Shown here in pieces: positions 22,250 to 30,809 of a stretch of 64,000 nucleotides of DNA. Position 1 is the first letter of the stretch. Each line of letters opens with the position of its first letter. Below the pieces are notes generated by a model that was not told where the DNA came from, made no database searches, and saw only the letters and a list, made by a program, of their open reading frames with translations. The DNA is taken from contig CAVTZU010000013.1 of assembly GCA_963739305.1 (NCBI GenBank), positions 64,001 to 128,000 of the forward strand, read 5' to 3'. This stretch comes from Candidatus Bathyarchaeota archaeon (GTDB taxonomy: Archaea > Thermoproteota > Bathyarchaeia > Bathyarchaeales > Bathycorpusculaceae). The translations under genes were made by a program, and so were the position numbers.

Positions 22250-24817
22250 GTGGAAAATGATTTGAAGCTTCCGATTTTCAAAGAACCTCTATTTGTCGGA
22301 AGAGAACCAGAGCTTCAGCAACTGCAACAGTTGCTCGATTCCTCACGTGCAGGAAAAGGAGCTACGGTCTTTGTCTTCGGCGAAGCAGGAGCTGGAAAAA
22401 GCAGACTCGTCAAGGAATTTCTGAAGACCGTCAGAGAGAAGGAAATCACCGTGGTGAAGGGATTCTGCATGAGCAAGACTCCTGTCCCGTATTTTCCGTT
22501 CATAGAAGCTTTCAATGCCCTCTCCTCGTCTGACCATGACCAAGACATCAGCAAGAGCGCGAAGGAACACTTGGGAATAATGGGATGGCTAAAGGGAAAT
22601 GAAATGGTAGCAGCTGAATCCATTGGGATAGCAGGATGGCTAAAAGGTCCAAAACATGATAAGACGACAAGAGAACAGCCGACACTGAGCGCTGAAATCA
22701 GGAAGGACATGACCTACGCGGCTGTGGCAAGAGCCCTGCATTCAATTTCTACAGATAAACCCTTGATTCTGTTCATAGATGACATTCATTGGGCTGACTC
22801 GGCCTCTCTGGCTTTGCTTCACTACATATCACGCACCATTGCCTCGTCGAAAGTTCTCATCGTAGTCACTGTGCGGCTTGAAGAAGCAAGTCAGGATGCC
22901 GACGGTCGTCCTCAACCTTTGGCTGAAACTCTGCAATTGATGCGGCGTGAAGACCTATTTGTCGAAATCAAAGTCCCCAGTCTGGACAAACCTGAAGTCG
23001 TGAAGTTAGCTGAACTGATGGTCAATGGACCGATTGAGGAAGAATTTGTTGAAAAACTTTCAAAAGACAGCCAGGGAAACCCACTTTTCGCAGTTGAATC
23101 TGTGAGGATGCTGATTGAATCTGGAAGTTTGGTCTGCAAGGATGGGACATGGTGTCTTACTACAAAGGAACTGAGCATACCGACAAAAGTGAAAGACGTC
23201 ATACTTTATCGGCTCAACCGACTGACAGCGATTCAGAGAAGAATGCTTGATCTGGGATCGGTAATCGGAGAAAGATTTGACCCTGCACTACTTGGGGCGG
23301 TTCTCTCTCAAGATAGGCTAGTCGTCTTAGAGACTTTGAACATGATCGCGCACTCAACTCTTCTAATTTATCCAATTGAGAATGTGTACAAGTTTGGCCA
23401 CGGGAAGTTTCGAGATGTGCTTTACGACGAAATATCTCATCCTTTGCGACGAGAATACCACGAAAGAATCGCAGAGAAAATCGAGAGTCTCACAAAGGAA
23501 ACCACAGAACTGCCAGTCAATGACTTGGCATTTCATTATGTTCAAGCAGGAAACAACGAAAAAGCAATTCAATATAGCATCGTTGCGGGTGAAGATGCCC
23601 TGAAAAGGTTCAGCAATACGGAAGCCATCAAGGCTTTCAATTATGTCCTGAAAACCACGTCAGAAAATCCAAGATACTCGGCAGAGAGGCTCGTCGCTTC
23701 GGAAGGCTTGGGCGATGCCTTCTCGGCTGAGGGCGCATTCGAGGAAGCGGCAAAAACGTTTGAGCATTTAGGCCGTATCGCGGAGTCGGGTGGAATAAGG
23801 CTTCGCGCACTCAGGAAGGCTATGACTGCATCTTTCAACAGGGGAGATTTCCTCCATGCATTAGAATTGGCGGATAAGACTGAGAAAGACTCTGCTTTTG
23901 ACAAGCTGGAGTACGCAAGGGTTCAAGTGTATAGGACAAAAACGAATAATTTCAGGGGTAACCTTCCCTTCGTTAAGGCTTTAAATGAATTGGAGAATTG
24001 TCTACAGATTTTCGAGGAGAAGAACTCCAGTCCTGACGTGGCCGATGCCTTGCTAGAAATTGGGACTCTTTACGTGACGGACTCACAAGGAGCAGAGGCT
24101 GTGCCTTTTCTCCAACGTGCTATCGATCTGTACGAGAGATTGGGAAACTCCCGAAAGCAGACTGAGGCATATTTTTGGGCTGGAAATGCGCAATTCACGC
24201 ATGGTTCTCATCAGGAGGCTCTTGACAATTGGGAAAAAACCATCAAGATTGGGGAGAAGATAGGCGACTACAACAGGATGGCATGGGCCAGACTGTATTC
24301 CGGCCTTTTGCACGAATCTATGGGAGAGCTTAAAGAAGCGCTCGAAGACTCCCTGAAAGGGATCGAATATGCTGAGAAAACAGATTCATACTATGTGCGG
24401 AGCATGATATATGCAAACATCGCTAGAGATTGCGCGAAACTCGGGGATTCCAAACGTCTAGAGGAATTCAGGGAGAAATTCACCAAATCATTTGTTGATG
24501 CGGGTAAGACGTCAAGCAAACTGGCAAGAGCCGTAGGTGTTCGCACGGAGGCTGTCCTGTTCGCGGTAGATGGTCATTGGGACGAAGCGAATAACCATTT
24601 TGAACACTGCCTTGAATTGTTTAAAGGAGCGGCAGCTGCCATTGTTCATGAAGCAATGGCCAGGGCTGATTATGCTTGGGCGCTTAGAAAGCAGGGAAGA
24701 ATTGTTGACGCAAGAAGGCAGATTGAAGAGACCAAGAAGTTGTATGAAAAGGTCGGAAGTAGATCTAATGTGGAGAGAATGGAGACAATGCTGGTCGAAA
24801 TCAAGGAGCCTTCATGA
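22250..24817 (+). CDS. STAND-class AAA ATPase with C-terminal TPR repeats
   Basis: FVGREPEL, Walker A GEAGAGKS, Walker B LFIDDIHWAD, GNPLF, F.HG.FRDVLY, then TPR-like helices. Confidence 0.92.
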   Translation: MENDLKLPIFKEPLFVGREPELQQLQQLLDSSRAGKGATVFVFGEAGAGKSRLVKEFLKTVREKEITVVKGFCMSKTPVPYFPFIEAFNALSSSDHDQDISKSAKEHLGIMGWLKGNEMVAAESIGIAGWLKGPKHDKTTREQPTLSAEIRKDMTYAAVARALHSISTDKPLILFIDDIHWADSASLALLHYISRTIASSKVLIVVTVRLEEASQDADGRPQPLAETLQLMRREDLFVEIKVPSLDKPEVVKLAELMVNGPIEEEFVEKLSKDSQGNPLFAVESVRMLIESGSLVCKDGTWCLTTKELSIPTKVKDVILYRLNRLTAIQRRMLDLGSVIGERFDPALLGAVLSQDRLVVLETLNMIAHSTLLIYPIENVYKFGHGKFRDVLYDEISHPLRREYHERIAEKIESLTKETTELPVNDLAFHYVQAGNNEKAIQYSIVAGEDALKRFSNTEAIKAFNYVLKTTSENPRYSAERLVASEGLGDAFSAEGAFEEAAKTFEHLGRIAESGGIRLRALRKAMTASFNRGDFLHALELADKTEKDSAFDKLEYARVQVYRTKTNNFRGNLPFVKALNELENCLQIFEEKNSSPDVADALLEIGTLYVTDSQGAEAVPFLQRAIDLYERLGNSRKQTEAYFWAGNAQFTHGSHQEALDNWEKTIKIGEKIGDYNRMAWARLYSGLLHESMGELKEALEDSLKGIEYAEKTDSYYVRSMIYANIARDCAKLGDSKRLEEFREKFTKSFVDAGKTSSKLARAVGVRTEAVLFAVDGHWDEANNHFEHCLELFKGAAAAIVHEAMARADYAWALRKQGRIVDARRQIEETKKLYEKVGSRSNVERMETMLVEIKEPS

Positions 24818-24912: not shown

Positions 24913-25116
24913 CTATTCGGTCAGTACGAGCGGTCCCAGCTTGAGAACTATCGAGCCGTCCACCTCAAGGAAACACAACGTATCACCAGGTCGCAACCCA
25001 AACTTCTTCCTGACCTCAGTGGGCACTGTTATCTGGCCTCGCGCCGTCATTTTTGATTGCCCCCTCAAAATTGCCTCAACGGAAGCGTGTTCTTCATTTC
25101 TTGTTTCTCGACTCAA
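24913..25116 (-). CDS. AbrB/MazE/SpoVT-family DNA-binding protein
   Basis: SKMTARGQITVPTEVRKKFGLRPGDTLCFLEVDGSIVL. Confidence 0.9.
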   Translation of the reverse strand: MSRETRNEEHASVEAILRGQSKMTARGQITVPTEVRKKFGLRPGDTLCFLEVDGSIVLKLGPLVLTE

Positions 25117-25269
25117 GGTTACTCAGCACTCTCCAGTCACTTTTGGAATGTTATTGCAAGTAAATCAATAAAAGACTTACTGTGTTGTATTATCATGCGT
25201 TTCTTACAATTTTTTAAGAACAGATTAGAATGTATAGTAATGACGAGGAAAAGTCGGGGGGTGAGGAAA

Positions 25270-25590
25270 ATGGAAAAGAAACCTGACGAAAAAGAACCAG
25301 TTAAGGTGAAGGAGAAGGCCAAGCTGTATCCGAAGCTTATGACGCCGGTAAGAGCCGCGATTGCACCTAGTCTCGCCAAGTCTGCTGCCCGAACAAGTGC
25401 TCGTACTAGTGCGCGAACAAGCGCACGAACAAGTGCCCGAACAAGTGCTCGCACAAACGCACGCACCAATGCTAGAACAAATGCTCGCACGAACGCGCGA
25501 ACGAACGCACGAACGAACGCTCGTACCAATGCGCGGACGAACGCCCGAACAAATGCTCGCACAAACGCGCGGACAATGACGCAGGCGTAA
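25270..25590 (+). CDS. Putative RiPP-like precursor peptide: 39-aa leader + (ARTS)5(ARTN)10 ARTM + TQA
   Basis: GGTGAGG RBS before ATG 25270; repeats use varied synonymous codons; lies directly upstream of the RRE-M50 peptidase. Confidence 0.8.
   Translation: MEKKPDEKEPVKVKEKAKLYPKLMTPVRAAIAPSLAKSAARTSARTSARTSARTSARTSARTNARTNARTNARTNARTNARTNARTNARTNARTNARTNARTMTQA
25387..25578 (+). repeat. 16 x 12-bp coding tandem repeat (GCN MGN ACN ARY)
   Basis: Counted directly: 5 ARTS, 10 ARTN, 1 ARTM; A, R and T are invariant at protein level. Confidence 0.97.
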
Positions 25591-25591
25591 A

Positions 25592-25613
25592 TGTCGTGAG
25601 CGCTCTCGCGACA
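25592..25613 (+). promoter_or_regulatory. RNA stem-loop immediately after the precursor stop codon
   Basis: TGTCGTGAG-CGCT-CTCGCGACA, a 9-bp stem with one G-U pair. Confidence 0.55.
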
Positions 25614-25688
25614 AATCGTTGCGTGGAGATAAACAACTTCACTAGTATTTTCTTTGTTTGTTTTCATTCAGAATAGAGAGGGGGGCGC

Positions 25689-28517
25689 ATGAGTACTGAC
25701 GTTGCGAGTAAGACAGACGTAATGTACGAAATCCTGTACAATCCCACAGAGTTCATTCCATTGCCTTCATCGCGGGTTAATGTAAAGACAACGATTGTTG
25801 ATAACAAACCCTCCTATTTGATGAAGAATCATGCAACTGGAACATACTACGATCTCGATGAGCTAACAGACTTGATCTGGAGTCTGACAGACGGCAAAAG
25901 AACAGTCAGTCAAATCGTCAAGGATGTTCAGGCTCAGAAACCGAAGGTGCAGGAAAAAACTGTTTTTGAAAACCTATTGTTTTTTGCTGATTCAAATCTT
26001 CTGGAGGAAAAATCTGAAGAGAAACCAAAGACGAGATTCAGAGTAGTGTCCTCCTTTGAAATGGCAATTACGTTGATTCGAAATAGCCACGGTTTCATCC
26101 ACTCTCTTCATTCACGCATACATCTGATTTTCAGGAGATGGTTACTTTGGGTCACGATCGGATTTATCATTGCGGCTGCAGTGTTGTTTGCTCGTGAATT
26201 TGTGTCGATCTATGGACAAAAAGCGAATTTCGAAATCATGGGGTCATCGGTTGTGGGCTTCTTCTTCTATTATTTTGTGCCTCTAGCTCCTGTGATTGCA
26301 ATTCATGAAATTGCCCATGCAATAACTCTTGTGCATTTCGGTGGTCAGGCTGGTGAGATGGGAACTGGCTTGTTTTACTTCAGTCCAATGTTCTATACGG
26401 ATACCACGGACGCCTGGGGGCTAACGAGAGGTCAGAGAATGCAGGTCTACCTAGCCGGAAACATTTCCACCTTGCTCATCGGAGCCGCTCTTGTTTTTGT
26501 TCATCTCTTTGTTCAGATTCCCGGGTTTGCCTCTCAAATCGTTCTCATGGTGTCTTTTTACTGTTTTTCAATGTCACTCATGAACTTTGCCCCTCCCTTC
26601 GAGACTGACGGTTATTACATACTCTCGGACGCCGTCAAGATGCCGAACCTTCGATATGACTCGTATGGCTATTTGGGCTCGGTTGTCAGACGTTTTTTCA
26701 GAAGACCTGTAAAGAAAGAAACTTCAGGGCTAACCAAAAGAAAAAAGCAGATCTTTTTATTATATGGACTTGTATCTGTGGCCTGGATCATATACATCAT
26801 TTTTCAAACGTCACTCTTCCTCGTCTATATGGGTCAAGACGTGACTGTTGCTCTCAGAAACATTGGTGGGGCAATCGTATCTTCCCAAGCGATACCGATA
26901 GCGGCAGTTGTGATTGCAACACTTTCTACCCTTTATTTCGGAATGCAACTCACAGGATACACGTTCGCTTTTTCGAGCGCGGTGAAAAAAGCCATGGCAA
27001 GACCTCTCACTCTTGAAGCCATCCATGATCGAGACTTAACTGTATTTGAGTATCTTCCTCCTGGCGTTCCAGAATTCCTCTGCAACCGTCTGAAGTCAAG
27101 AATGGAAAAGATCTCGAGGAAATTTACACCGAAGTTTGAGGTTAAACTTGTCGGACGGTCCTGCTTGGCTACATTGAGAATGGGCGGTACAAATTTGGCC
27201 TTAGTCCAAATCAAAGAGCATCTGAAACGGATTGAAAAAGAGTTTAACTCGGCGTATGAGAAACTTATACTAAGTCATAAGGACACGATTCAAAGATCGG
27301 TAGGTGTCCACTCCCCACAAAAGATTGGATTCACAAACGCTTTCAAACAATTTGCGACTGAATCATCAGAAGCGGGAAATTCCACTGCGTTCAACATTGC
27401 TCGAGCTTGTGAAAAAACTCAAGAAGAGACTCTCTTGTATCTTCTGCAATCGGCTTGTGGCACGGTTTGGAACATCGAAGTTCCGCCCTCCCAAGAATAC
27501 GAGTTTCAGAAAGAGTTGGCACCATCTTTACTTCTTGAAGACATGACTTTAACTGACCTTTACCACGACACTGAGAACTTCAAAAAACGCGTCATCTACG
27601 GTTTGGATTCGCTTATGGTTTTGGCAGTCGACACCGAAACTGCAATGAAGGAAGGACTTGCCAAACCGGATGAGTATCAATGTCTGAGTGTGTTAGAACC
27701 CATAAAGAGCCGAATCATTTTCGTAGGTCGAACTGACCCGATTGCCTACAAGTCAGAGGCATTCGCACCTATCTTTCTTACGTACACATGGACCGGCTAC
27801 ACGGACAATCTTTTGTGCGAGACCTGTCTGAAACTCGCAACAATCAAGCGAGCTCGTCTGCCTGATTCCAAAGAGATAGAAGAGTTAAGCATCGGCGAAT
27901 TAGCCGTTCTGTCGAAGGATCTCATGCTTTTCGATCAAACCAGGGATCTGGTTGATAGGCGAATTAAAAAGACTATGGAACAATTTGCCAAAATGAATCA
28001 AAGTCTTGCTGAAATGCAGCATACGGCAGAATCAGTGCAAATTTTCAAAATCGGAATGTTGGAAGCAGCTTTGCGTGTGAACACCGAGAATTTGACCTCT
28101 ATCCCCGGCAGGATTAGATGTTTCCAGAAAGATTGGAGTATAATGTGCAAGAGAATTGGGAAAGTGCAAGACCACGTTCAAAAGGCATACGATGAGACGA
28201 AGCCAGGCATCGAAAAGAGAAAACGCCATTTGCTGATGTTTTCTCCCTTCATCGTCATGGCGTCTGTTTTGCTCCTTGTTTTGGGCTTCAAACAAATGCC
28301 AACATCATGGTCGATTATATTATTCTCACTTTCGGCTGCGGTGCAGGTTGCCTATTGGACATTTTCCTATCGAGCGTGGAACTCAGCTCGCAAAGTTTCG
28401 AAGTATTCGGCCGAGGCTTTCAACTCAGTTCACACTGTTCTTCTAGCTCTGACAGAAGCCGTTTTCGGTTACGTGACGACCGAAGACGCTTTGACTCTGG
28501 ACGAGACATCAGTCTGA
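25689..28517 (+). CDS. PqqD/RRE domain - M50 (site-2 protease-like) zinc metallopeptidase fusion with a large C-terminal domain of unknown function
   Basis: YLMKNHATGTYYDLDELTDLIWSLTDGKRTVSQIV...SNLLE (PqqD-like); HEIAH; GEMGTG...PMFYTDTTDAW; VYLAG; NFAPPFETDGYYILSD; several TM segments. Confidence 0.9.
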   Translation: MSTDVASKTDVMYEILYNPTEFIPLPSSRVNVKTTIVDNKPSYLMKNHATGTYYDLDELTDLIWSLTDGKRTVSQIVKDVQAQKPKVQEKTVFENLLFFADSNLLEEKSEEKPKTRFRVVSSFEMAITLIRNSHGFIHSLHSRIHLIFRRWLLWVTIGFIIAAAVLFAREFVSIYGQKANFEIMGSSVVGFFFYYFVPLAPVIAIHEIAHAITLVHFGGQAGEMGTGLFYFSPMFYTDTTDAWGLTRGQRMQVYLAGNISTLLIGAALVFVHLFVQIPGFASQIVLMVSFYCFSMSLMNFAPPFETDGYYILSDAVKMPNLRYDSYGYLGSVVRRFFRRPVKKETSGLTKRKKQIFLLYGLVSVAWIIYIIFQTSLFLVYMGQDVTVALRNIGGAIVSSQAIPIAAVVIATLSTLYFGMQLTGYTFAFSSAVKKAMARPLTLEAIHDRDLTVFEYLPPGVPEFLCNRLKSRMEKISRKFTPKFEVKLVGRSCLATLRMGGTNLALVQIKEHLKRIEKEFNSAYEKLILSHKDTIQRSVGVHSPQKIGFTNAFKQFATESSEAGNSTAFNIARACEKTQEETLLYLLQSACGTVWNIEVPPSQEYEFQKELAPSLLLEDMTLTDLYHDTENFKKRVIYGLDSLMVLAVDTETAMKEGLAKPDEYQCLSVLEPIKSRIIFVGRTDPIAYKSEAFAPIFLTYTWTGYTDNLLCETCLKLATIKRARLPDSKEIEELSIGELAVLSKDLMLFDQTRDLVDRRIKKTMEQFAKMNQSLAEMQHTAESVQIFKIGMLEAALRVNTENLTSIPGRIRCFQKDWSIMCKRIGKVQDHVQKAYDETKPGIEKRKRHLLMFSPFIVMASVLLLVLGFKQMPTSWSIILFSLSAAVQVAYWTFSYRAWNSARKVSKYSAEAFNSVHTVLLALTEAVFGYVTTEDALTLDETSV

Positions 28518-28592
28518 AAGCTTTCAGATATTCCGGCAGATGATGCAAACGCGCGGTGAGCAAGTTTATAAGCTTTAGCAACAAGTATTTGT

Positions 28593-29375
28593 TTGATTCA
28601 GATGCCATTATCTGACCACAAGAGATTTTCAAAAACAACACGCAACTCTTCGGACACTCGTGAAGGATCCCTAAAAGAAGCGTTGTCCGAGCCTCGGAAA
28701 CCTGTCGGGGTTGATCGCGTGACAGATCTCATGAATTGTATGGATATTTCAAAGAAGGTTTATCATTCTTCAATTCTGCCCAAGAAACTTTCCAGTAGCA
28801 ATTCAGCCAAGACAAGAGTAGTTGGGGGAATTTCTAGAAATCTTGGTTCACATTCGTTCTCGGATAAACGATTGAAGCCCCGAGACTTCAACCTATGCAG
28901 AATCCCGAAAAAAAGCTCGAGTCTGCTGAGTAAAAGTGTTAATAGCTCTAGTTTTCTGATGGGAATTTTTACGCGAGAGGGACCCACATCAAAGTTTCCA
29001 TCAGCCTTTGTTGACAAGAACAAACTAGTAATGCACAAGCTGAATCGACCTCTTTCTCGAAAAGAAGTCAATTCAAATAATCAAAAACTCGGGCACTTTT
29101 CAAATGCTACTGCACTTCGATTGTTTGAAGCTTTGTCAAAGGAGCCAATGGAGTTTCTTCGTCTTCACACAAGTTTTGGAGTTTCAAAGCGGACCGTGAG
29201 GGGGTTCGTCAGAAATGGATGGTTAACAGAGACGTGGGGACGAGGAGGCGTGGGTATTCGGTTCAGACTTTCAGAGAAGGGAAGGAACTATCTAAAAAGC
29301 CTTGAGGAATATTCAAAGTACGAAACAAAACCGAATCTGCGAAACTTCATTCGTCTAAAAAATAGAGCCTTCTGA
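28593..29375 (+). CDS. Hypothetical protein with a disordered basic/Ser-rich N-terminus and a C-terminal winged helix
   Basis: LRLFEALSKEPMEFLRLHTSFGVSKRTVRGFVRNGWLTE...FRLSEKGRNYL; TTTATAAG upstream. Confidence 0.65.
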   Translation: MIQMPLSDHKRFSKTTRNSSDTREGSLKEALSEPRKPVGVDRVTDLMNCMDISKKVYHSSILPKKLSSSNSAKTRVVGGISRNLGSHSFSDKRLKPRDFNLCRIPKKSSSLLSKSVNSSSFLMGIFTREGPTSKFPSAFVDKNKLVMHKLNRPLSRKEVNSNNQKLGHFSNATALRLFEALSKEPMEFLRLHTSFGVSKRTVRGFVRNGWLTETWGRGGVGIRFRLSEKGRNYLKSLEEYSKYETKPNLRNFIRLKNRAF

Positions 29376-29641: not shown

Positions 29642-30535
29642 ATGAGCATGCCGAAACCGATTCTGGAAGGAATTCTTGTTCCCAGCGTTACCCCCTTCAC
29701 CCGCACTGGACGCATCGACGTCAGCTCATTAAGGGAATGCGTAAGCTTCTGGCTGGAAGGCGGCCTCTCAGGACTAGTTCCAATCGGCAGCAACGGTGAG
29801 GCTCCGTATCTTTCAAGACAAGAACGAGTAAGCATAATCAAAACAGTTGTCGACGAGACCAACGGAAAAGTCCCAGTGATTGCGGGCACAGGCAGCACCA
29901 GCACCAGAGAGACGATCCTGTTCACCAAGGACGCAGCCGACTTAGGCGCGGACGCCGCCCTGATAGTGACGCCATACTACTACAAACTGAACAGCCAAGA
30001 AATCCACGAGCACTACAAGAGCGTGTCTGAAGCCGTCGATTTTCCTATAGTCGTCTACAGCGTCCCAAAGTTTACAGGCGTGTCGCTGGAACCAGCCTTC
30101 ATCAACAAGCTTGCCTTGGAAAACAGGAAAGTGATTGGAGTGAAGGACAGCAGCGGAAACCTCGGTGCCATCACCGAAACCATAAGGCTGACAGGCAAAC
30201 GACTCTCAGTCTTGGCAGGCAGCGCCGACATAGTTTTGCCTACCTTATTGGCAGGAGGCAGCGGCGCAGTTGTGGCGGTTGCCAACGTGTTTCCCGCCTT
30301 GTGCAGCAAACTTTACATGGCTTTTAAGAAGCGAGACTACGAAGAAGCCTCCGCGCTCCAGAACCGCGTATCGTTCGCAAATGAAGTCCTGGTGAAAAAG
30401 TTCAACCAGCTTTCAGCCATCAAAGAAGCGATGAAGTCAAAAGGACTTCCCGCCGGATATCCTCGTAGACCAGCATTGCCCCTCGTCGGCACTGATAAGA
30501 AAACGCTCCTTGGCCTGTTGAAAGAAATAGGGTAA
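29642..30535 (+). CDS. dapA: Dihydrodipicolinate synthase family protein
   Basis: VTPF, GSNGE, VPVIAGTGS, VTPYYY, IVVYSVP, GVKDSSG. Confidence 0.9.
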   Translation: MSMPKPILEGILVPSVTPFTRTGRIDVSSLRECVSFWLEGGLSGLVPIGSNGEAPYLSRQERVSIIKTVVDETNGKVPVIAGTGSTSTRETILFTKDAADLGADAALIVTPYYYKLNSQEIHEHYKSVSEAVDFPIVVYSVPKFTGVSLEPAFINKLALENRKVIGVKDSSGNLGAITETIRLTGKRLSVLAGSADIVLPTLLAGGSGAVVAVANVFPALCSKLYMAFKKRDYEEASALQNRVSFANEVLVKKFNQLSAIKEAMKSKGLPAGYPRRPALPLVGTDKKTLLGLLKEIG

Positions 30536-30614: not shown

Positions 30615-30809
30615 ATGCCTGCTGAAATCCTTGATACCGAACACTTTGTGAAGCTGAGTGAAAAAGCAGAGTTCTGCGCCGTCAAACGGTTAAAGGAAGT
30701 CGTGAAGCTGAAGCTTCGAACGCCGAGCAAACTGTACACACTGAAGATTGAACCAATGAAGGCTGAAGAAGTCATCAAGAAGCTTCAATGCGAAATCCGC
30801 GAGATATGA
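30615..30809 (+). CDS. rpl38e: Ribosomal protein eL38
   Basis: MPAEI...VKR...VKLKLRTPSKLYTLKI...EEVIKKL.CEIREI matches the eL38 pattern. Confidence 0.85.
   Translation: MPAEILDTEHFVKLSEKAEFCAVKRLKEVVKLKLRTPSKLYTLKIEPMKAEEVIKKLQCEIREI

What the first reader, a model, noticed from the sequence alone, without database searches (positions are those of the whole stretch)
26980..28517. Unexplained ~500-aa C-terminal region fused to the RRE-M50 peptidase
Seen: after the M50 transmembrane core there is a ~400-aa soluble region (AIHDRDL...FKKRVIYGLDS...EPIKSRIIFVGRT...TWTGYTDNLL), a long coiled-coil-like stretch and two final TM helices. I recognise no family here. Inference: since the locus has no separate tailoring enzyme or transporter, this region may be a new modifying activity, an export/pore module or an immunity function.
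Basis: inference. Interest (0 to 1): 0.7.

Follow-up and report, generated by a model that had tools for sequence, protein, structure and literature searches.

The report
Orphan domain on archaeal peptide protease
The last 510 residues of this archaeal membrane protease form a conserved domain of no known family, always fused to the protease and always encoded beside a small gene for a positively charged tandem-repeat peptide, so it probably handles or modifies that peptide.

Summary
ORF 25689-28517 (+) encodes 942 aa: a PqqD-like RRE, a six-helix HExxH site-2-type metalloprotease core, then residues 431-942. These matched nothing in Pfam, NCBIfam, PDB sequences, Foldseek PDB/BFVD or the ESM Atlas.

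The region folds confidently (pLDDT 90.5): an alpha/beta platform, a long antiparallel helical hairpin running into TM7, then TM8 and a terminal helix. It was found only in Bathyarchaeia and only fused to the protease.

The surroundings are more informative. In 56 of 59 testable loci a small gene lies beside the protease. It encodes a conserved K/E-rich leader ([YF]PKL motif) followed by variable cationic tandem repeats (here ARTS/ARTN x15). An AbrB-like gene and a winged-helix gene were present in 35 of 35 loci with enough flank. No enzyme or transporter recurs.

Shorter relatives that lack the region sit with cNMP-binding and cyclase genes and have no repeat peptide.

Conservation peaks in an acidic sub-domain (586-730). 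The TM hairpin is poorly conserved and missing in a divergent subclade, which argues against a pore.

Best reading (0.4): a cytoplasmic module that handles or gates the substrate. A new tailoring enzyme remains open.

The parts
25689..28517 (+). Whole gene, 942 aa: RRE + site-2-type intramembrane metalloprotease + orphan C-terminal region
   Evidence: ORF list and translation. Single copy in the own genome.
25761..26003 (+). PqqD-like RiPP recognition element (about residues 25-105)
   Evidence: Pfam PqqD E 2e-4 on residues 47-93. Foldseek TbiB1 5v1v_A E 3e-3, target TM-score 0.71. PDB profile search TbiB1 E 3e-4.
26127..26963 (+). Six-helix membrane core of the metalloprotease (residues 147-425)
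   Evidence: NCBIfam daptide_HExxH E 1.9e-44 on residues 42-411, below its cut-off. Hydropathy. AF2 helices. Weak Foldseek matches to SpoIVFB and MjS2P.
26304..26318 (+). HEIAH zinc-binding motif (H206, E207, H210)
   Evidence: Sequence. Invariant in 79 homologues.
26583..26612 (+). N299-x2-P302-x4-D307-G308, second S2P signature
   Evidence: Sequence. P302, D307 and G308 invariant, N299 at least 90%. The motif definition is recalled from the S2P literature.
26997..27278 (+). Alpha/beta unit 1 (residues 437-530), beta-alpha-beta-beta-alpha, basic
   Evidence: AF2 model of 437-850, pLDDT 90.5, pTM 0.87. Net charge median +6. H446, D447 and R448 at least 90% in 52 sequences. E516 and F519 invariant.
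27279..27443 (+). Helical insert (residues 531-585), poorly conserved
   Evidence: AF2. Block conservation 0.56-0.58.
27444..27878 (+). Alpha/beta unit 2 (residues 586-730): conservation hot spot, consistently acidic
   Evidence: Near-invariant S588, W594, E597, D618, E629, F631, K632, K633, G638, D640, P671, R675, G680, R681, T682, W701, D706. Net charge median -8, range -13 to -1 in 79 homologues.
27891..28226 (+). Antiparallel helical hairpin or stalk (residues 735-846). Only its base is conserved (E737, N798, E800).
28227..28292 (+). TM7 (residues 847-868), continuous with the stalk helix
   Evidence: Hydropathy maximum 2.5, at least 1.5 in 79 of 79 homologues.
28302..28391 (+). TM8 (residues 872-901), moderately hydrophobic
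   Evidence: AF2 helix. Hydropathy 1.39 here, at least 1.5 in 66 of 79 homologues.
28413..28490 (+). Terminal amphipathic helix (residues 909-934)
   Evidence: AF2. A similar terminal helix is kept in the subclade without TM7-8.
25271..25590 (+). Repeat-peptide gene, 106 aa: K/E-rich leader with LYPKL, then (ARTS)x5 (ARTN)x10. Putative cognate substrate.
   Evidence: Sequence and ribosome-binding site. 12-nt tandem array. Differences between units lie almost only at third codon positions of this frame (read by eye). Homologous leader+repeat ORFs beside the fusion gene in 56 of 59 testable loci.
24913..25116 (-). AbrB/MazE-like small protein (67 aa), divergent from the peptide gene
   Evidence: Pfam MazE_antitoxin E 1.3e-8. 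Present in 35 of 35 loci with enough flank. Ortholog found only in the 2 of 401 sampled genomes that carry the fusion. Divergent from the peptide gene in 48 of 52 loci.
28593..29375 (+). Winged-helix protein (260 aa)
   Evidence: Weak Pfam hits here; HVO_A0261_N E 1.4e-6 in the L005 homologue. Present in 35 of 35 loci with enough flank.

Best explanation
Residues 431-942 are a Bathyarchaeia-specific cytoplasmic accessory module. It is permanently fused to an RRE-guided, site-2-type intramembrane metalloprotease. The protease's cognate substrate is probably the peptide encoded next door, which has a conserved leader followed by cationic tandem repeats.

Proposed working (inferred):
1. The N-terminal RRE captures the leader through its [YF]PKL-containing strand.
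2. The alpha/beta platform hangs under the cytoplasmic mouth of the protease. It is tethered at one end by TM6. At the other end it is tethered by a long helical stalk, which is re-anchored in the membrane by TM7-TM8.
3. The conserved acidic second half of the platform (586-730), together with the polar cluster at the base of the stalk, binds and positions the basic repeat region or a small ligand. This controls access to the HExxH site.

This is the role that PDZ domains play in RseP and the CBS domain plays in SpoIVFB. The stalk and the TM hairpin are scaffolding, not a channel.
For: Shown:
- The region was found only fused. All 19 representative hits of at least 888 aa place it at residues about 390-443 onward. 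The four shorter hits that I read look like gene fragments.
- It was found only in Bathyarchaeia.
- It is rare there: 2 of 401 sampled genomes of the class, counting the window's own.
- Hydropathy gives six helices in the protease core. K/R-rich loops (300-352, 426-440, 838-847, 898-905) lie on the RRE side. So the region is cytoplasmic and next to the RRE and the active-site face (the topology itself is inferred).
- Conservation is concentrated in 586-710 plus E737, N798 and E800. The stalk and the TM hairpin are the least conserved parts.
- Sub-domain 586-730 is acidic in all 79 homologues (median net charge -8). Its neighbours are basic or neutral.
- All 57 repeat cores scored are net cationic.
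- The region co-varies with the substrate type. Long-form genes sit beside a leader+repeat peptide gene in 56 of 59 testable loci. They sit beside AbrB-like and wHTH genes in 35 of 35 loci with enough flank.
- Five short-form RRE-S2P loci (protein about 441 aa, 35-39% identical, without the region) have none of these genes. They carry a cNMP-binding gene (5 of 5) and a class III cyclase gene (4 of 5) instead.

From established knowledge (recalled): soluble domains appended to S2P proteases are, where studied, regulatory or substrate-filtering (the PDZ domains of RseP, the CBS domain of SpoIVFB).
Against: - No binding was shown.
- Net charge of the acidic sub-domain does not track the charge density of the cognate repeat core (Spearman rho -0.11, p 0.40, n 57).
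- About ten polar residues stay near-invariant down to 20-30% identity: E516, S588, D618, E629, K632, R675, R681, T682, E737, N798. That is at least as typical of an active site as of a docking surface.
- No coordinates were available, so I could not test whether these residues form one pocket or surface.
- The full-length model has pTM 0.56, so the position of the module relative to the protease core is not established.
- That the repeat peptide is the substrate rests on gene neighbourhood alone.
Confidence: 0.4

Rival explanations
1. The alpha/beta region is a new tailoring enzyme that acts on each repeat unit of the peptide before or while the protease removes the leader. It may be a divergent palm-type, nucleotide-using fold. 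The module would then be a minimal RiPP pathway in one polypeptide.
For: - No other enzyme recurs in 35 loci with enough flank.
- Near-invariant acidic residues (E516, E597, D618, E629, D640, D706, E737, E800) and basic residues (K632, K633, R675, R681) persist in the most divergent members.
- Foldseek gave bPAC at probability 0.51 and adenylyl cyclase C2 at 0.35.
- Pfam Cas10-Cmr2_palm2 appears below threshold in 5 of 52 members (best E 0.078).
- Every repeat unit, whatever its length (4-12 aa), keeps one K or R after a small or aliphatic residue. This is a possible common target.
Against: - No catalytic motif of any known family is present.
- A profile comparison with a Bathyarchaeial class III cyclase gave probability 0.07.
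- The first hairpin, where cyclases and GGDEF domains carry an acidic metal ligand (position recalled), reads VGRS here.
- Repeat units vary widely in sequence and length, which is awkward for a sequence-specific enzyme.
Confidence: 0.25
2. The region is a sensor. It would be a degenerate cyclase-like or other ligand-binding domain that switches the protease on or off in response to a nucleotide, metal or metabolite. It would replace, in fused form, the separate cNMP-binding protein and cyclase that accompany the short-form protease.
For: - Short-form RRE-S2P genes lie beside a cNMP-binding gene in 5 of 5 loci and a class III cyclase gene in 4 of 5 loci. Long-form loci have neither (0 of 92).
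- There are weak cyclase-like fold leads.
- A polar cluster lies at the junction of the platform and the stalk (E737, N798, E800). That is where a conformational signal could pass to the membrane.
- The CBS domain of SpoIVFB is a precedent for nucleotide sensing in an S2P protease (recalled).
Against: - No sequence similarity to cyclase or cNMP-binding domains was found.
- The short-form loci come from one other family of Bathyarchaeia, and four of the five are close relatives by their cNMP-binding gene (94-100% identical; L096 72%). They amount to about one independent observation.
- This reading overlaps the best explanation and differs only in what is bound.
Confidence: 0.15
3. The region is an export conduit. 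The stalk and TM7-TM8 would oligomerise into a CorA-like funnel and pore through which the processed cationic peptide leaves the cell, as protease and exporter are joined in peptidase-containing ABC transporters.
For: - The architecture resembles CorA/ZntB: a cytoplasmic alpha/beta domain, a long helix continuous with a TM helix, and a C-terminal TM hairpin.
- No transporter gene recurs in the loci.
Against: - No GMN-type motif is present. The TM7-TM8 loop (KQMPTS) has no invariant residue.
- TM7-8 and the stalk are the least conserved parts.
- P0102, P0106, P0107 and P0109 keep the alpha/beta part and the stalk but have no TM hairpin.
- There is no energy-coupling domain. Moving polycations out against an inside-negative membrane potential would need one (established bioenergetics).
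Confidence: 0.07
4. The region gives self-protection. Its acidic surface would sequester the cationic peptide at the membrane so that the peptide does not bind the producer's nucleic acids.
For: The sub-domain is acidic in all 79 homologues and the repeat cores are cationic in all 57 scored. No separate immunity gene is evident, unless the AbrB-like protein serves as one.
Against: A one-to-one sequestering site cannot protect against a peptide made in excess. Strict fusion to the protease is more simply explained by a role in processing. Nothing bearing on this reading was tested.
Confidence: 0.08

Closest known systems
Daptide leader peptidase MpaP/DapP (NCBIfam NF041824) and YydH/LiaK epipeptide proteases (NF058609)
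   Same: An N-terminal RRE is fused to an HExxH intramembrane site-2-type protease. NF041824 matches residues 42-411 at E 1.9e-44 and NF058609 at E 1.3e-9. The daptide preprint describes RRE domains fused N-terminally to an intramembrane site-2 protease that removes the leader (passages read).
   Different: The score (152 bits) is far below the family cut-off of 300. No aminotransferase, methyltransferase or oxidoreductase lies nearby. The peptide is a cationic tandem repeat, not a hydrophobic peptide ending in Thr. The profile of that family is 379 positions long, so it does not cover the 510-aa C-terminal region.
SpoIVFB (S2P with C-terminal CBS domain) and RseP (S2P with PDZ domains)
   Same: A site-2 protease core carries an appended soluble domain that regulates or filters substrate access (recalled). 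SpoIVFB and MjS2P are the weak Foldseek matches to the core.
   Different: No CBS or PDZ signal was found in Pfam. The appended region is four to five times larger, has its own helical stalk and re-enters the membrane.
CorA/ZntB divalent-cation channels (2-TM-GxN type)
   Different: There is no GMN motif and no Pfam CorA signal at E up to 1. The score is no better than for spectrin repeats. The TM hairpin is absent in a subclade.
Peptidase-containing ABC transporters (PCAT) of class II bacteriocins and lanthipeptides
   Same: One polypeptide joins the leader peptidase to a second function needed for the same peptide. The gene cluster is minimal: peptide, processing protein and regulators.
Multi-copy repeat precursors: fungal Kex2-processed repeat proteins, the ustiloxin precursor, thiovarsolin precursors
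   Same: A leader is followed by many tandem copies of a short unit, each containing a basic residue (search listings and abstracts only: PMC7329392 and PMC6511847).
   Different: Those are eukaryotic secretory or actinobacterial systems with other proteases and known tailoring enzymes. Here the units are 4-12 aa with a single K or R and no spacer, and it is not known whether the array is cut into units at all.

Membership tests
RRE-fused site-2-type RiPP leader peptidase (architecture shared by DapP/MpaP and YydH) | N-terminal PqqD-like RRE | tested here: met
   Pfam PqqD E 2e-4, below the gathering score. Foldseek TbiB1 target TM-score 0.71. PDB profile search TbiB1 E 3e-4.
RRE-fused site-2-type RiPP leader peptidase (architecture shared by DapP/MpaP and YydH) | HExxH in a TM helix plus NxxPxxxxDG (motif definitions recalled) | tested here: met
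   H206, E207, H210, P302, D307 and G308 are invariant in 79 sequences.
Daptide protease NF041824 (equivalog) | Score at or above the curated cut-off (300 bits) | tested here: not met
   152.3 bits.
Daptide protease NF041824 (equivalog) | Neighbouring daptide enzymes and precursors ending in Thr | tested here: not met
   No such genes in the window's locus or among the recurrent neighbours. The peptide ends ...ARTMTQA.
Pfam Peptidase_M50 (PF02163) | Gathering score 27.2 bits | tested here: not met
   11.1 bits, E 0.24. Three of the 83 homologues carry the precomputed PF02163 label.
CorA / 2-TM-GxN channels | Conserved G-M-N motif after the first TM helix (recalled) | tested here: not met
   The TM7-TM8 loop reads KQMPTS and has no invariant column.
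CorA / 2-TM-GxN channels | Fold match clearly above unrelated helical proteins | tested here: inconclusive
Class III nucleotidyl cyclase / GGDEF / Cas10 palm domains | Sequence-profile match | tested here: not met
   No Pfam hit in 52 members apart from Cas10-Cmr2_palm2 at E 0.078 or worse in 5. hhalign against a Bathyarchaeial cyclase gave probability 0.07.
Class III nucleotidyl cyclase / GGDEF / Cas10 palm domains | Fold match over most of the domain | tested here: inconclusive
Class III nucleotidyl cyclase / GGDEF / Cas10 palm domains | Pair of acidic metal ligands at the end of beta-1 and in the beta-2/beta-3 hairpin (recalled) | not testable with these tools
   No model coordinates are given out. 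By secondary structure, E597 ends a strand and E670 precedes a hairpin in unit 2. The hairpin of unit 1 reads VGRS.
Peptidase M16 non-catalytic domain | Fold match | tested here: inconclusive
S2P regulatory domains (PDZ, CBS) | Pfam PDZ or CBS match | tested here: not met
   None at E up to 1.

The most novel reading that the evidence does not exclude
The alpha/beta platform is a previously unseen enzyme, possibly a very divergent palm-type nucleotide-using domain. It would modify every unit of the neighbouring cationic tandem-repeat peptide while that peptide is held by the fused RRE and intramembrane protease. The four-gene module (repeat peptide, RRE-S2P-enzyme fusion, AbrB-like protein, wHTH protein) would then be a new class of ribosomal peptide natural product confined to Bathyarchaeia, with recognition, tailoring and leader removal in one polypeptide.
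Probability: 0.2. Interest if true: 0.85.

Novelty: new variant of a known kind. Interest (0 to 1): 0.68.

Why it matters
RRE-fused intramembrane proteases are a recently recognised way of maturing ribosomal peptides (daptides, epipeptides). Little is known about ribosomal peptide products or site-2 protease substrates in uncultured archaea such as Bathyarchaeia.

This locus gives four things:
- a well-folded 510-residue domain with no detectable relatives outside one archaeal class;
- an obvious candidate substrate family, with conserved leaders and fast-changing cationic repeat cores;
- two tightly linked DNA-binding proteins;
- a natural comparison set, the short forms without the domain, which keep different company.

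Together these make the domain's function directly testable. They also define a gene module that I did not find described in the papers searched (searches; passages 35, 84, 87, 88).

Tried and rejected
- **Complex prediction.** Residues 1-930 with the AbrB-like protein, using the alignments A1 and A4. The verdict was 'no answer' (score 0.00, mark 0.32). It is not evidence either way.
- **Expression.** No RNA holder was listed for window 25200-28600, and I did not lay reads.
- **ESM Atlas.** No usable hit for residues 437-850.
- **BFVD Foldseek.** Nothing at E 0.001 or better.
- **PADLOC.** No defence-system family for the protease, the AbrB-like or the wHTH protein. There were only weak hits for the neighbouring STAND ATPase.
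- **Internal duplication.** Alpha/beta units 1 and 2, and each unit against the RRE, gave hhalign probability about 0.1, so nothing was detected.
- **Charge matching.** There is no correlation between the acidic sub-domain and the cognate repeat core (rho -0.11, n 57).
- **Other candidate module members.** A roughly 100-aa membrane protein (5 loci) and a roughly 1100-aa TPR-DUF11 protein (6 loci) lie near some relatives. They are encoded elsewhere in this genome, the latter with 15 matching places, so I dropped them from the module.
- **Context of the TM-hairpin-less subclade.** P0102 was searched in 401 genomes of the phylum. Only the ordinary long form turned up, in G000 and G118, so the gene context of that subclade remains unknown.
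- **Earlier findings of this scan.** Two look-ups returned nothing.
- **Model coordinates.** They are not available to scripts, so conserved residues could not be mapped in space.
- **My automatic repeat filter.** It dropped four true cases that are rich in L or F (L051, L052, L060, L061). I added these back by reading the ORFs.
- **Leader HMM.** It was seeded from 37 ORFs picked with a [YFL]PK[LFM] pattern, so its 42 hits are partly circular.
Full report
**The observation.** The finding's coordinates (26980-28517) are residues 431-942 of one 942-aa ORF, 25689..28517 on the + strand.

- Pfam gives weak PqqD (residues 47-93, E 2e-4), DUF3267 and Peptidase_M50 matches.
- NCBIfam aligns residues 42-411 to the daptide intramembrane metalloprotease model at E 1.9e-44. 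The score is 152 bits against a cut-off of 300. The YydH/LiaK model matches at E 1.3e-9.
- HEIAH (206-210) and N299-x2-P-x4-D307-G are conserved. H206, E207, H210, P302, D307 and G308 are invariant in 79 homologues.
- Foldseek on the full-length AlphaFold2 model (pLDDT 80.6, pTM 0.56) finds the lasso-peptide RRE TbiB1 (E 3e-3, target TM-score 0.71). It also finds SpoIVFB and MjS2P weakly.

Nothing recognisable covers residues 431-942:
- No Pfam or NCBIfam family matched except a sub-threshold hit on the TM hairpin.
- Pfam gave nothing credible on 52 homologous C-terminal segments scanned singly.
- PDB sequence or profile searches gave nothing for the alpha/beta part.
- The ESM Atlas gave no hit.

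**Anatomy.** Folded alone with 72 aligned sequences, residues 437-850 give a confident model (pLDDT 90.5, pTM 0.87). In order, the parts are:
- Unit 1 (437-530), with beta-alpha-beta-beta-alpha topology.
- A poorly conserved helical insert (531-585).
- Unit 2 (586-730): a strand, three helices, a beta-hairpin and a long helix.
- Two very long antiparallel helices (735-782 and 799-867) joined through a short strand.
- TM7, which is the continuation of the second long helix.
- TM8 (872-901) and a last amphipathic helix (909-934).

TM7 is hydrophobic in 79 of 79 homologues. TM8 reaches the 1.5 hydropathy threshold in 66 of 79 and scores 1.39 here.

The protease core has six hydrophobic helices. 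The K/R-rich loops lie on the RRE side. I therefore infer that the whole region is cytoplasmic. It would sit next to the RRE and the face of the membrane where HExxH and D307 lie, tethered at both ends.

**Distribution.** A word-indexed search found 83 homologues of the region at 31-69% identity. Most are 924-982 aa and six are shorter (522-644 aa). An exhaustive HMMER scan of 1.84 billion cluster representatives found only 46 hits:
- 19 are at least 888 aa, and in each the match starts at residue 390-443.
- 27 are 66-637 aa. The four of these that I read (P0090, P0098, P0107, P0109) begin or end in mid-domain, as gene fragments do.

All 13 loci in one-genome-per-species contigs are Bathyarchaeia. 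The gene is rare even there. It was found in 2 of 401 sampled genomes of the class, counting the window's own. It was not found in the one same-genus genome (89% complete) or in 103 same-family genomes. The own genome has one copy.

**Fold comparisons.**
- Foldseek against PDB gave no row at E 0.001 or better, with either the full model or the C-terminal model. BFVD gave none either.
- M16 peptidase domains recur among weak Foldseek rows in three searches (probability 0.57 or less).

I take 'ferredoxin-like, perhaps palm-like' as a lead only. No internal duplication is detectable by profile comparison.

**Conservation.** In the widest alignment (72 sequences, down to 20% identity) these residues are 96% conserved or better: E516, F519, S588, W594, P600, D618, E629, F631, K632, G638, P671, R675, G680, R681, T682, W701, L716, E737 and N798.

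The hot spot is 586-710 plus the base of the stalk. The body of the stalk and the TM hairpin are the least conserved parts. Unit 2 (586-730) is acidic in all 79 homologues, with median net charge -8 and range -13 to -1. Unit 1, the stalk and the cytoplasmic loop 301-352 are basic.

Four divergent family members (P0102, P0106, P0107, P0109) keep the alpha/beta part and the stalk. They end in the amphipathic helix and have no TM hairpin.

**Surroundings.** Upstream of the gene, on the same strand, lies a 106-aa ORF (25271-25590) behind a GGTGAGG ribosome-binding site. It reads MEKKPDEKEPVKVKEKAKLYPKLMTPVRAA..., then (ARTS)x5 (ARTN)x10 ARTMTQA. The 12-nt units differ almost only at third codon positions of this frame (read by eye). 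So the peptide, not the DNA repeat, is under selection.

Tandem Repeats Finder on the related loci then showed an array next to the protease gene in most of them. Translated in the right frame, each is a homologous small ORF with three parts: a K/E-rich start, a [YFL]PK[LFM] motif, and tandem units. The units differ from locus to locus:
- 4 aa: APAK/APAR, MKPT, ATGR, ASTR, APSR, TPTR, GKAP, ARPK
- 5 aa: AATRA, KAATV
- 6 aa: KERIAA, GLGAKS, PRGELK
- 7, 8 and 10 aa: TRKPVSM, APKVGLKA, AMRLTPNQxx

I examined 92 loci: the window, 13 genome contigs and 78 metagenome contigs. Several are near-duplicates, so they are not independent. Of these, 59 hold the 3' end of the gene and at least 600 nt beyond it.
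- 48 were flagged automatically with a convergent downstream basic-repeat ORF. 38 of the 48 also match a leader HMM.
- 4 more (L051, L052, L060, L061) have one on inspection.
- 4 (window, L001, L018, L019) have the array upstream on the same strand. In the last three it is cut by the contig end.
- 3 are not resolved: L034 lacks its 5' end, L066 has Ns, and none was found in L053.

That makes 56 of 59. All 57 cores scored are net cationic.

Two more genes belong to the module.
- **An AbrB/MazE-like protein of 60-76 aa** (window 24913-25116, minus strand; Pfam E 1.3e-8). It stays 67-91% identical even where the protease has fallen to about 40%.
- **A winged-helix protein** (window 28593-29375).

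Both are present in 35 of 35 loci with at least 1000 nt upstream and 1500 nt downstream. In the 401-genome class sample, an AbrB ortholog at 71% identity or more occurs only in the two genomes that have the fusion. Every other hit is 48% identical or less over most of the protein. The peptide gene and the AbrB-like gene are divergent neighbours in 48 of 52 loci, a median of about 170 nt apart. This suits a transcriptional regulator. No enzyme or transporter recurs. PADLOC sees no defence family.

**A natural control.** Proteins of about 430-445 aa match the N-terminal 430 residues at 35-39% identity over nearly their full length and stop there. In the class sample this short form occurs in five genomes of another family. 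Those loci hold only about 1.5 kb on each side.
- They have no repeat array, no leader-HMM hit, no AbrB ortholog and no wHTH gene.
- A cNMP-binding gene is adjacent in 5 of 5, and a class III cyclase gene is present in 4 of 5.
- Neither of these genes occurs in the 92 long-form loci.

Presence of the C-terminal region therefore goes together with the repeat peptide, AbrB and wHTH set. Four of the five short-form loci are close relatives (their cNMP-binding genes are 94-100% identical; L096 is at 72%), so this counts as about one observation.

**How it most likely works.** What is shown:
- the domain architecture;
- a confident, conserved orphan region found only fused to the protease;
- the conserved acidic sub-domain;
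- the four-gene module.

What is inferred:
- the cytoplasmic location;
- that the repeat peptide is the substrate captured through its leader by the RRE, by analogy with daptide and other RRE-dependent systems (passages of 10.1101/2023.03.08.531785);
- what the region does with it.

I rank the readings as follows.
1. **A substrate-handling or gating module (0.4).** It fits the position next to the RRE and active site and the charge complementarity. It also fits the poor conservation of the stalk and TM hairpin, the co-variation with substrate type, and the precedent of appended domains in other S2P proteases.
2. **A new tailoring enzyme, perhaps palm-like (0.25).** The dense invariant acidic and basic residues and the lack of any other enzyme speak for it. 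The absence of any known motif and the diversity of the repeats speak against it.
3. **A ligand sensor related to the cyclic-nucleotide context of the short forms (0.15).**
4. **Self-protection by sequestration (0.08).**
5. **An export pore (0.07).**

**Novelty.** The protease half is a known kind. The C-terminal region, the leader plus cationic-repeat peptides and the AbrB/wHTH linkage are not in the papers I could search:
- full-text searches;
- passages of the daptide preprint;
- passages of the RRE-Finder paper, the 2025 RRE structure paper and the 2025 archaeal RiPP survey.

I did not see the supplements of these papers. I file the finding as a new variant of a known kind, with a moderate chance that it is the core of a new archaeal peptide class.

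Noticed in passing
window 25271-25590 (+): A 106-aa ORF with a K/E-rich leader (…KAKLYPKLMTPVRAA…) followed by 15 tandem tetrapeptides, (ARTS)x5 (ARTN)x10. Units differ almost only at synonymous third positions. Homologous leader+repeat ORFs, with quite different units of 4-12 aa, accompany nearly every relative of the protease gene.
   Followed up: yes
window 24913-25116 (-): An AbrB/MazE-like 67-aa protein ending in the invariant …LKLGPLVLTE. It is much better conserved (67-91% identity) than the protease it accompanies and is divergent from the repeat-peptide gene in 48 of 52 loci. Its tail is hydrophobic with a Gly-Pro break; whether it is itself a protease substrate is unknown.
   Followed up: partly
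window 28593-29375 (+): A 260-aa protein with an S/K/R-rich, probably disordered first half and a C-terminal winged helix. Relatives in more distant loci have a second HTH at the N-terminus instead and lie upstream on the opposite strand.
   Followed up: partly
L096-L100 (genome handles G289, G309, G111, G329, G128): A short-form RRE-S2P (about 441 aa, no C-terminal region) forms a conserved module with a 145-aa cNMP-binding protein (5 of 5 loci), a class III adenylyl/guanylyl cyclase (4 of 5) and a 188-aa protein of no Pfam family (3 of 5). No candidate substrate peptide was seen in the 1.5-kb flanks.
   Followed up: partly
window 22250-24817 (+): An 855-aa STAND-type ATPase (AAA_16, E 4e-29) with TPR repeats lies directly beside the module in this window only. 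No similar sequence lies beside the module in the 13 genome loci checked.
   Followed up: partly
own genome, e.g. G000:C20:89103-92378; loci L004-L007, L011: A family of roughly 1100-aa TPR + DUF11 proteins has 15 matching places in this genome and lies next to the module in 6 related loci. It is probably a lineage-expanded family rather than part of the module.
   Followed up: partly
window 30615-30809 (+): A 64-aa ORF matching ribosomal protein L38e (Pfam E 2.9e-6, just above the gathering score), an archaeal/eukaryotic ribosomal protein. Together with DHDPS (29642-30535), it shows that the module is flanked by housekeeping genes rather than lying in an obvious mobile island.
   Followed up: no
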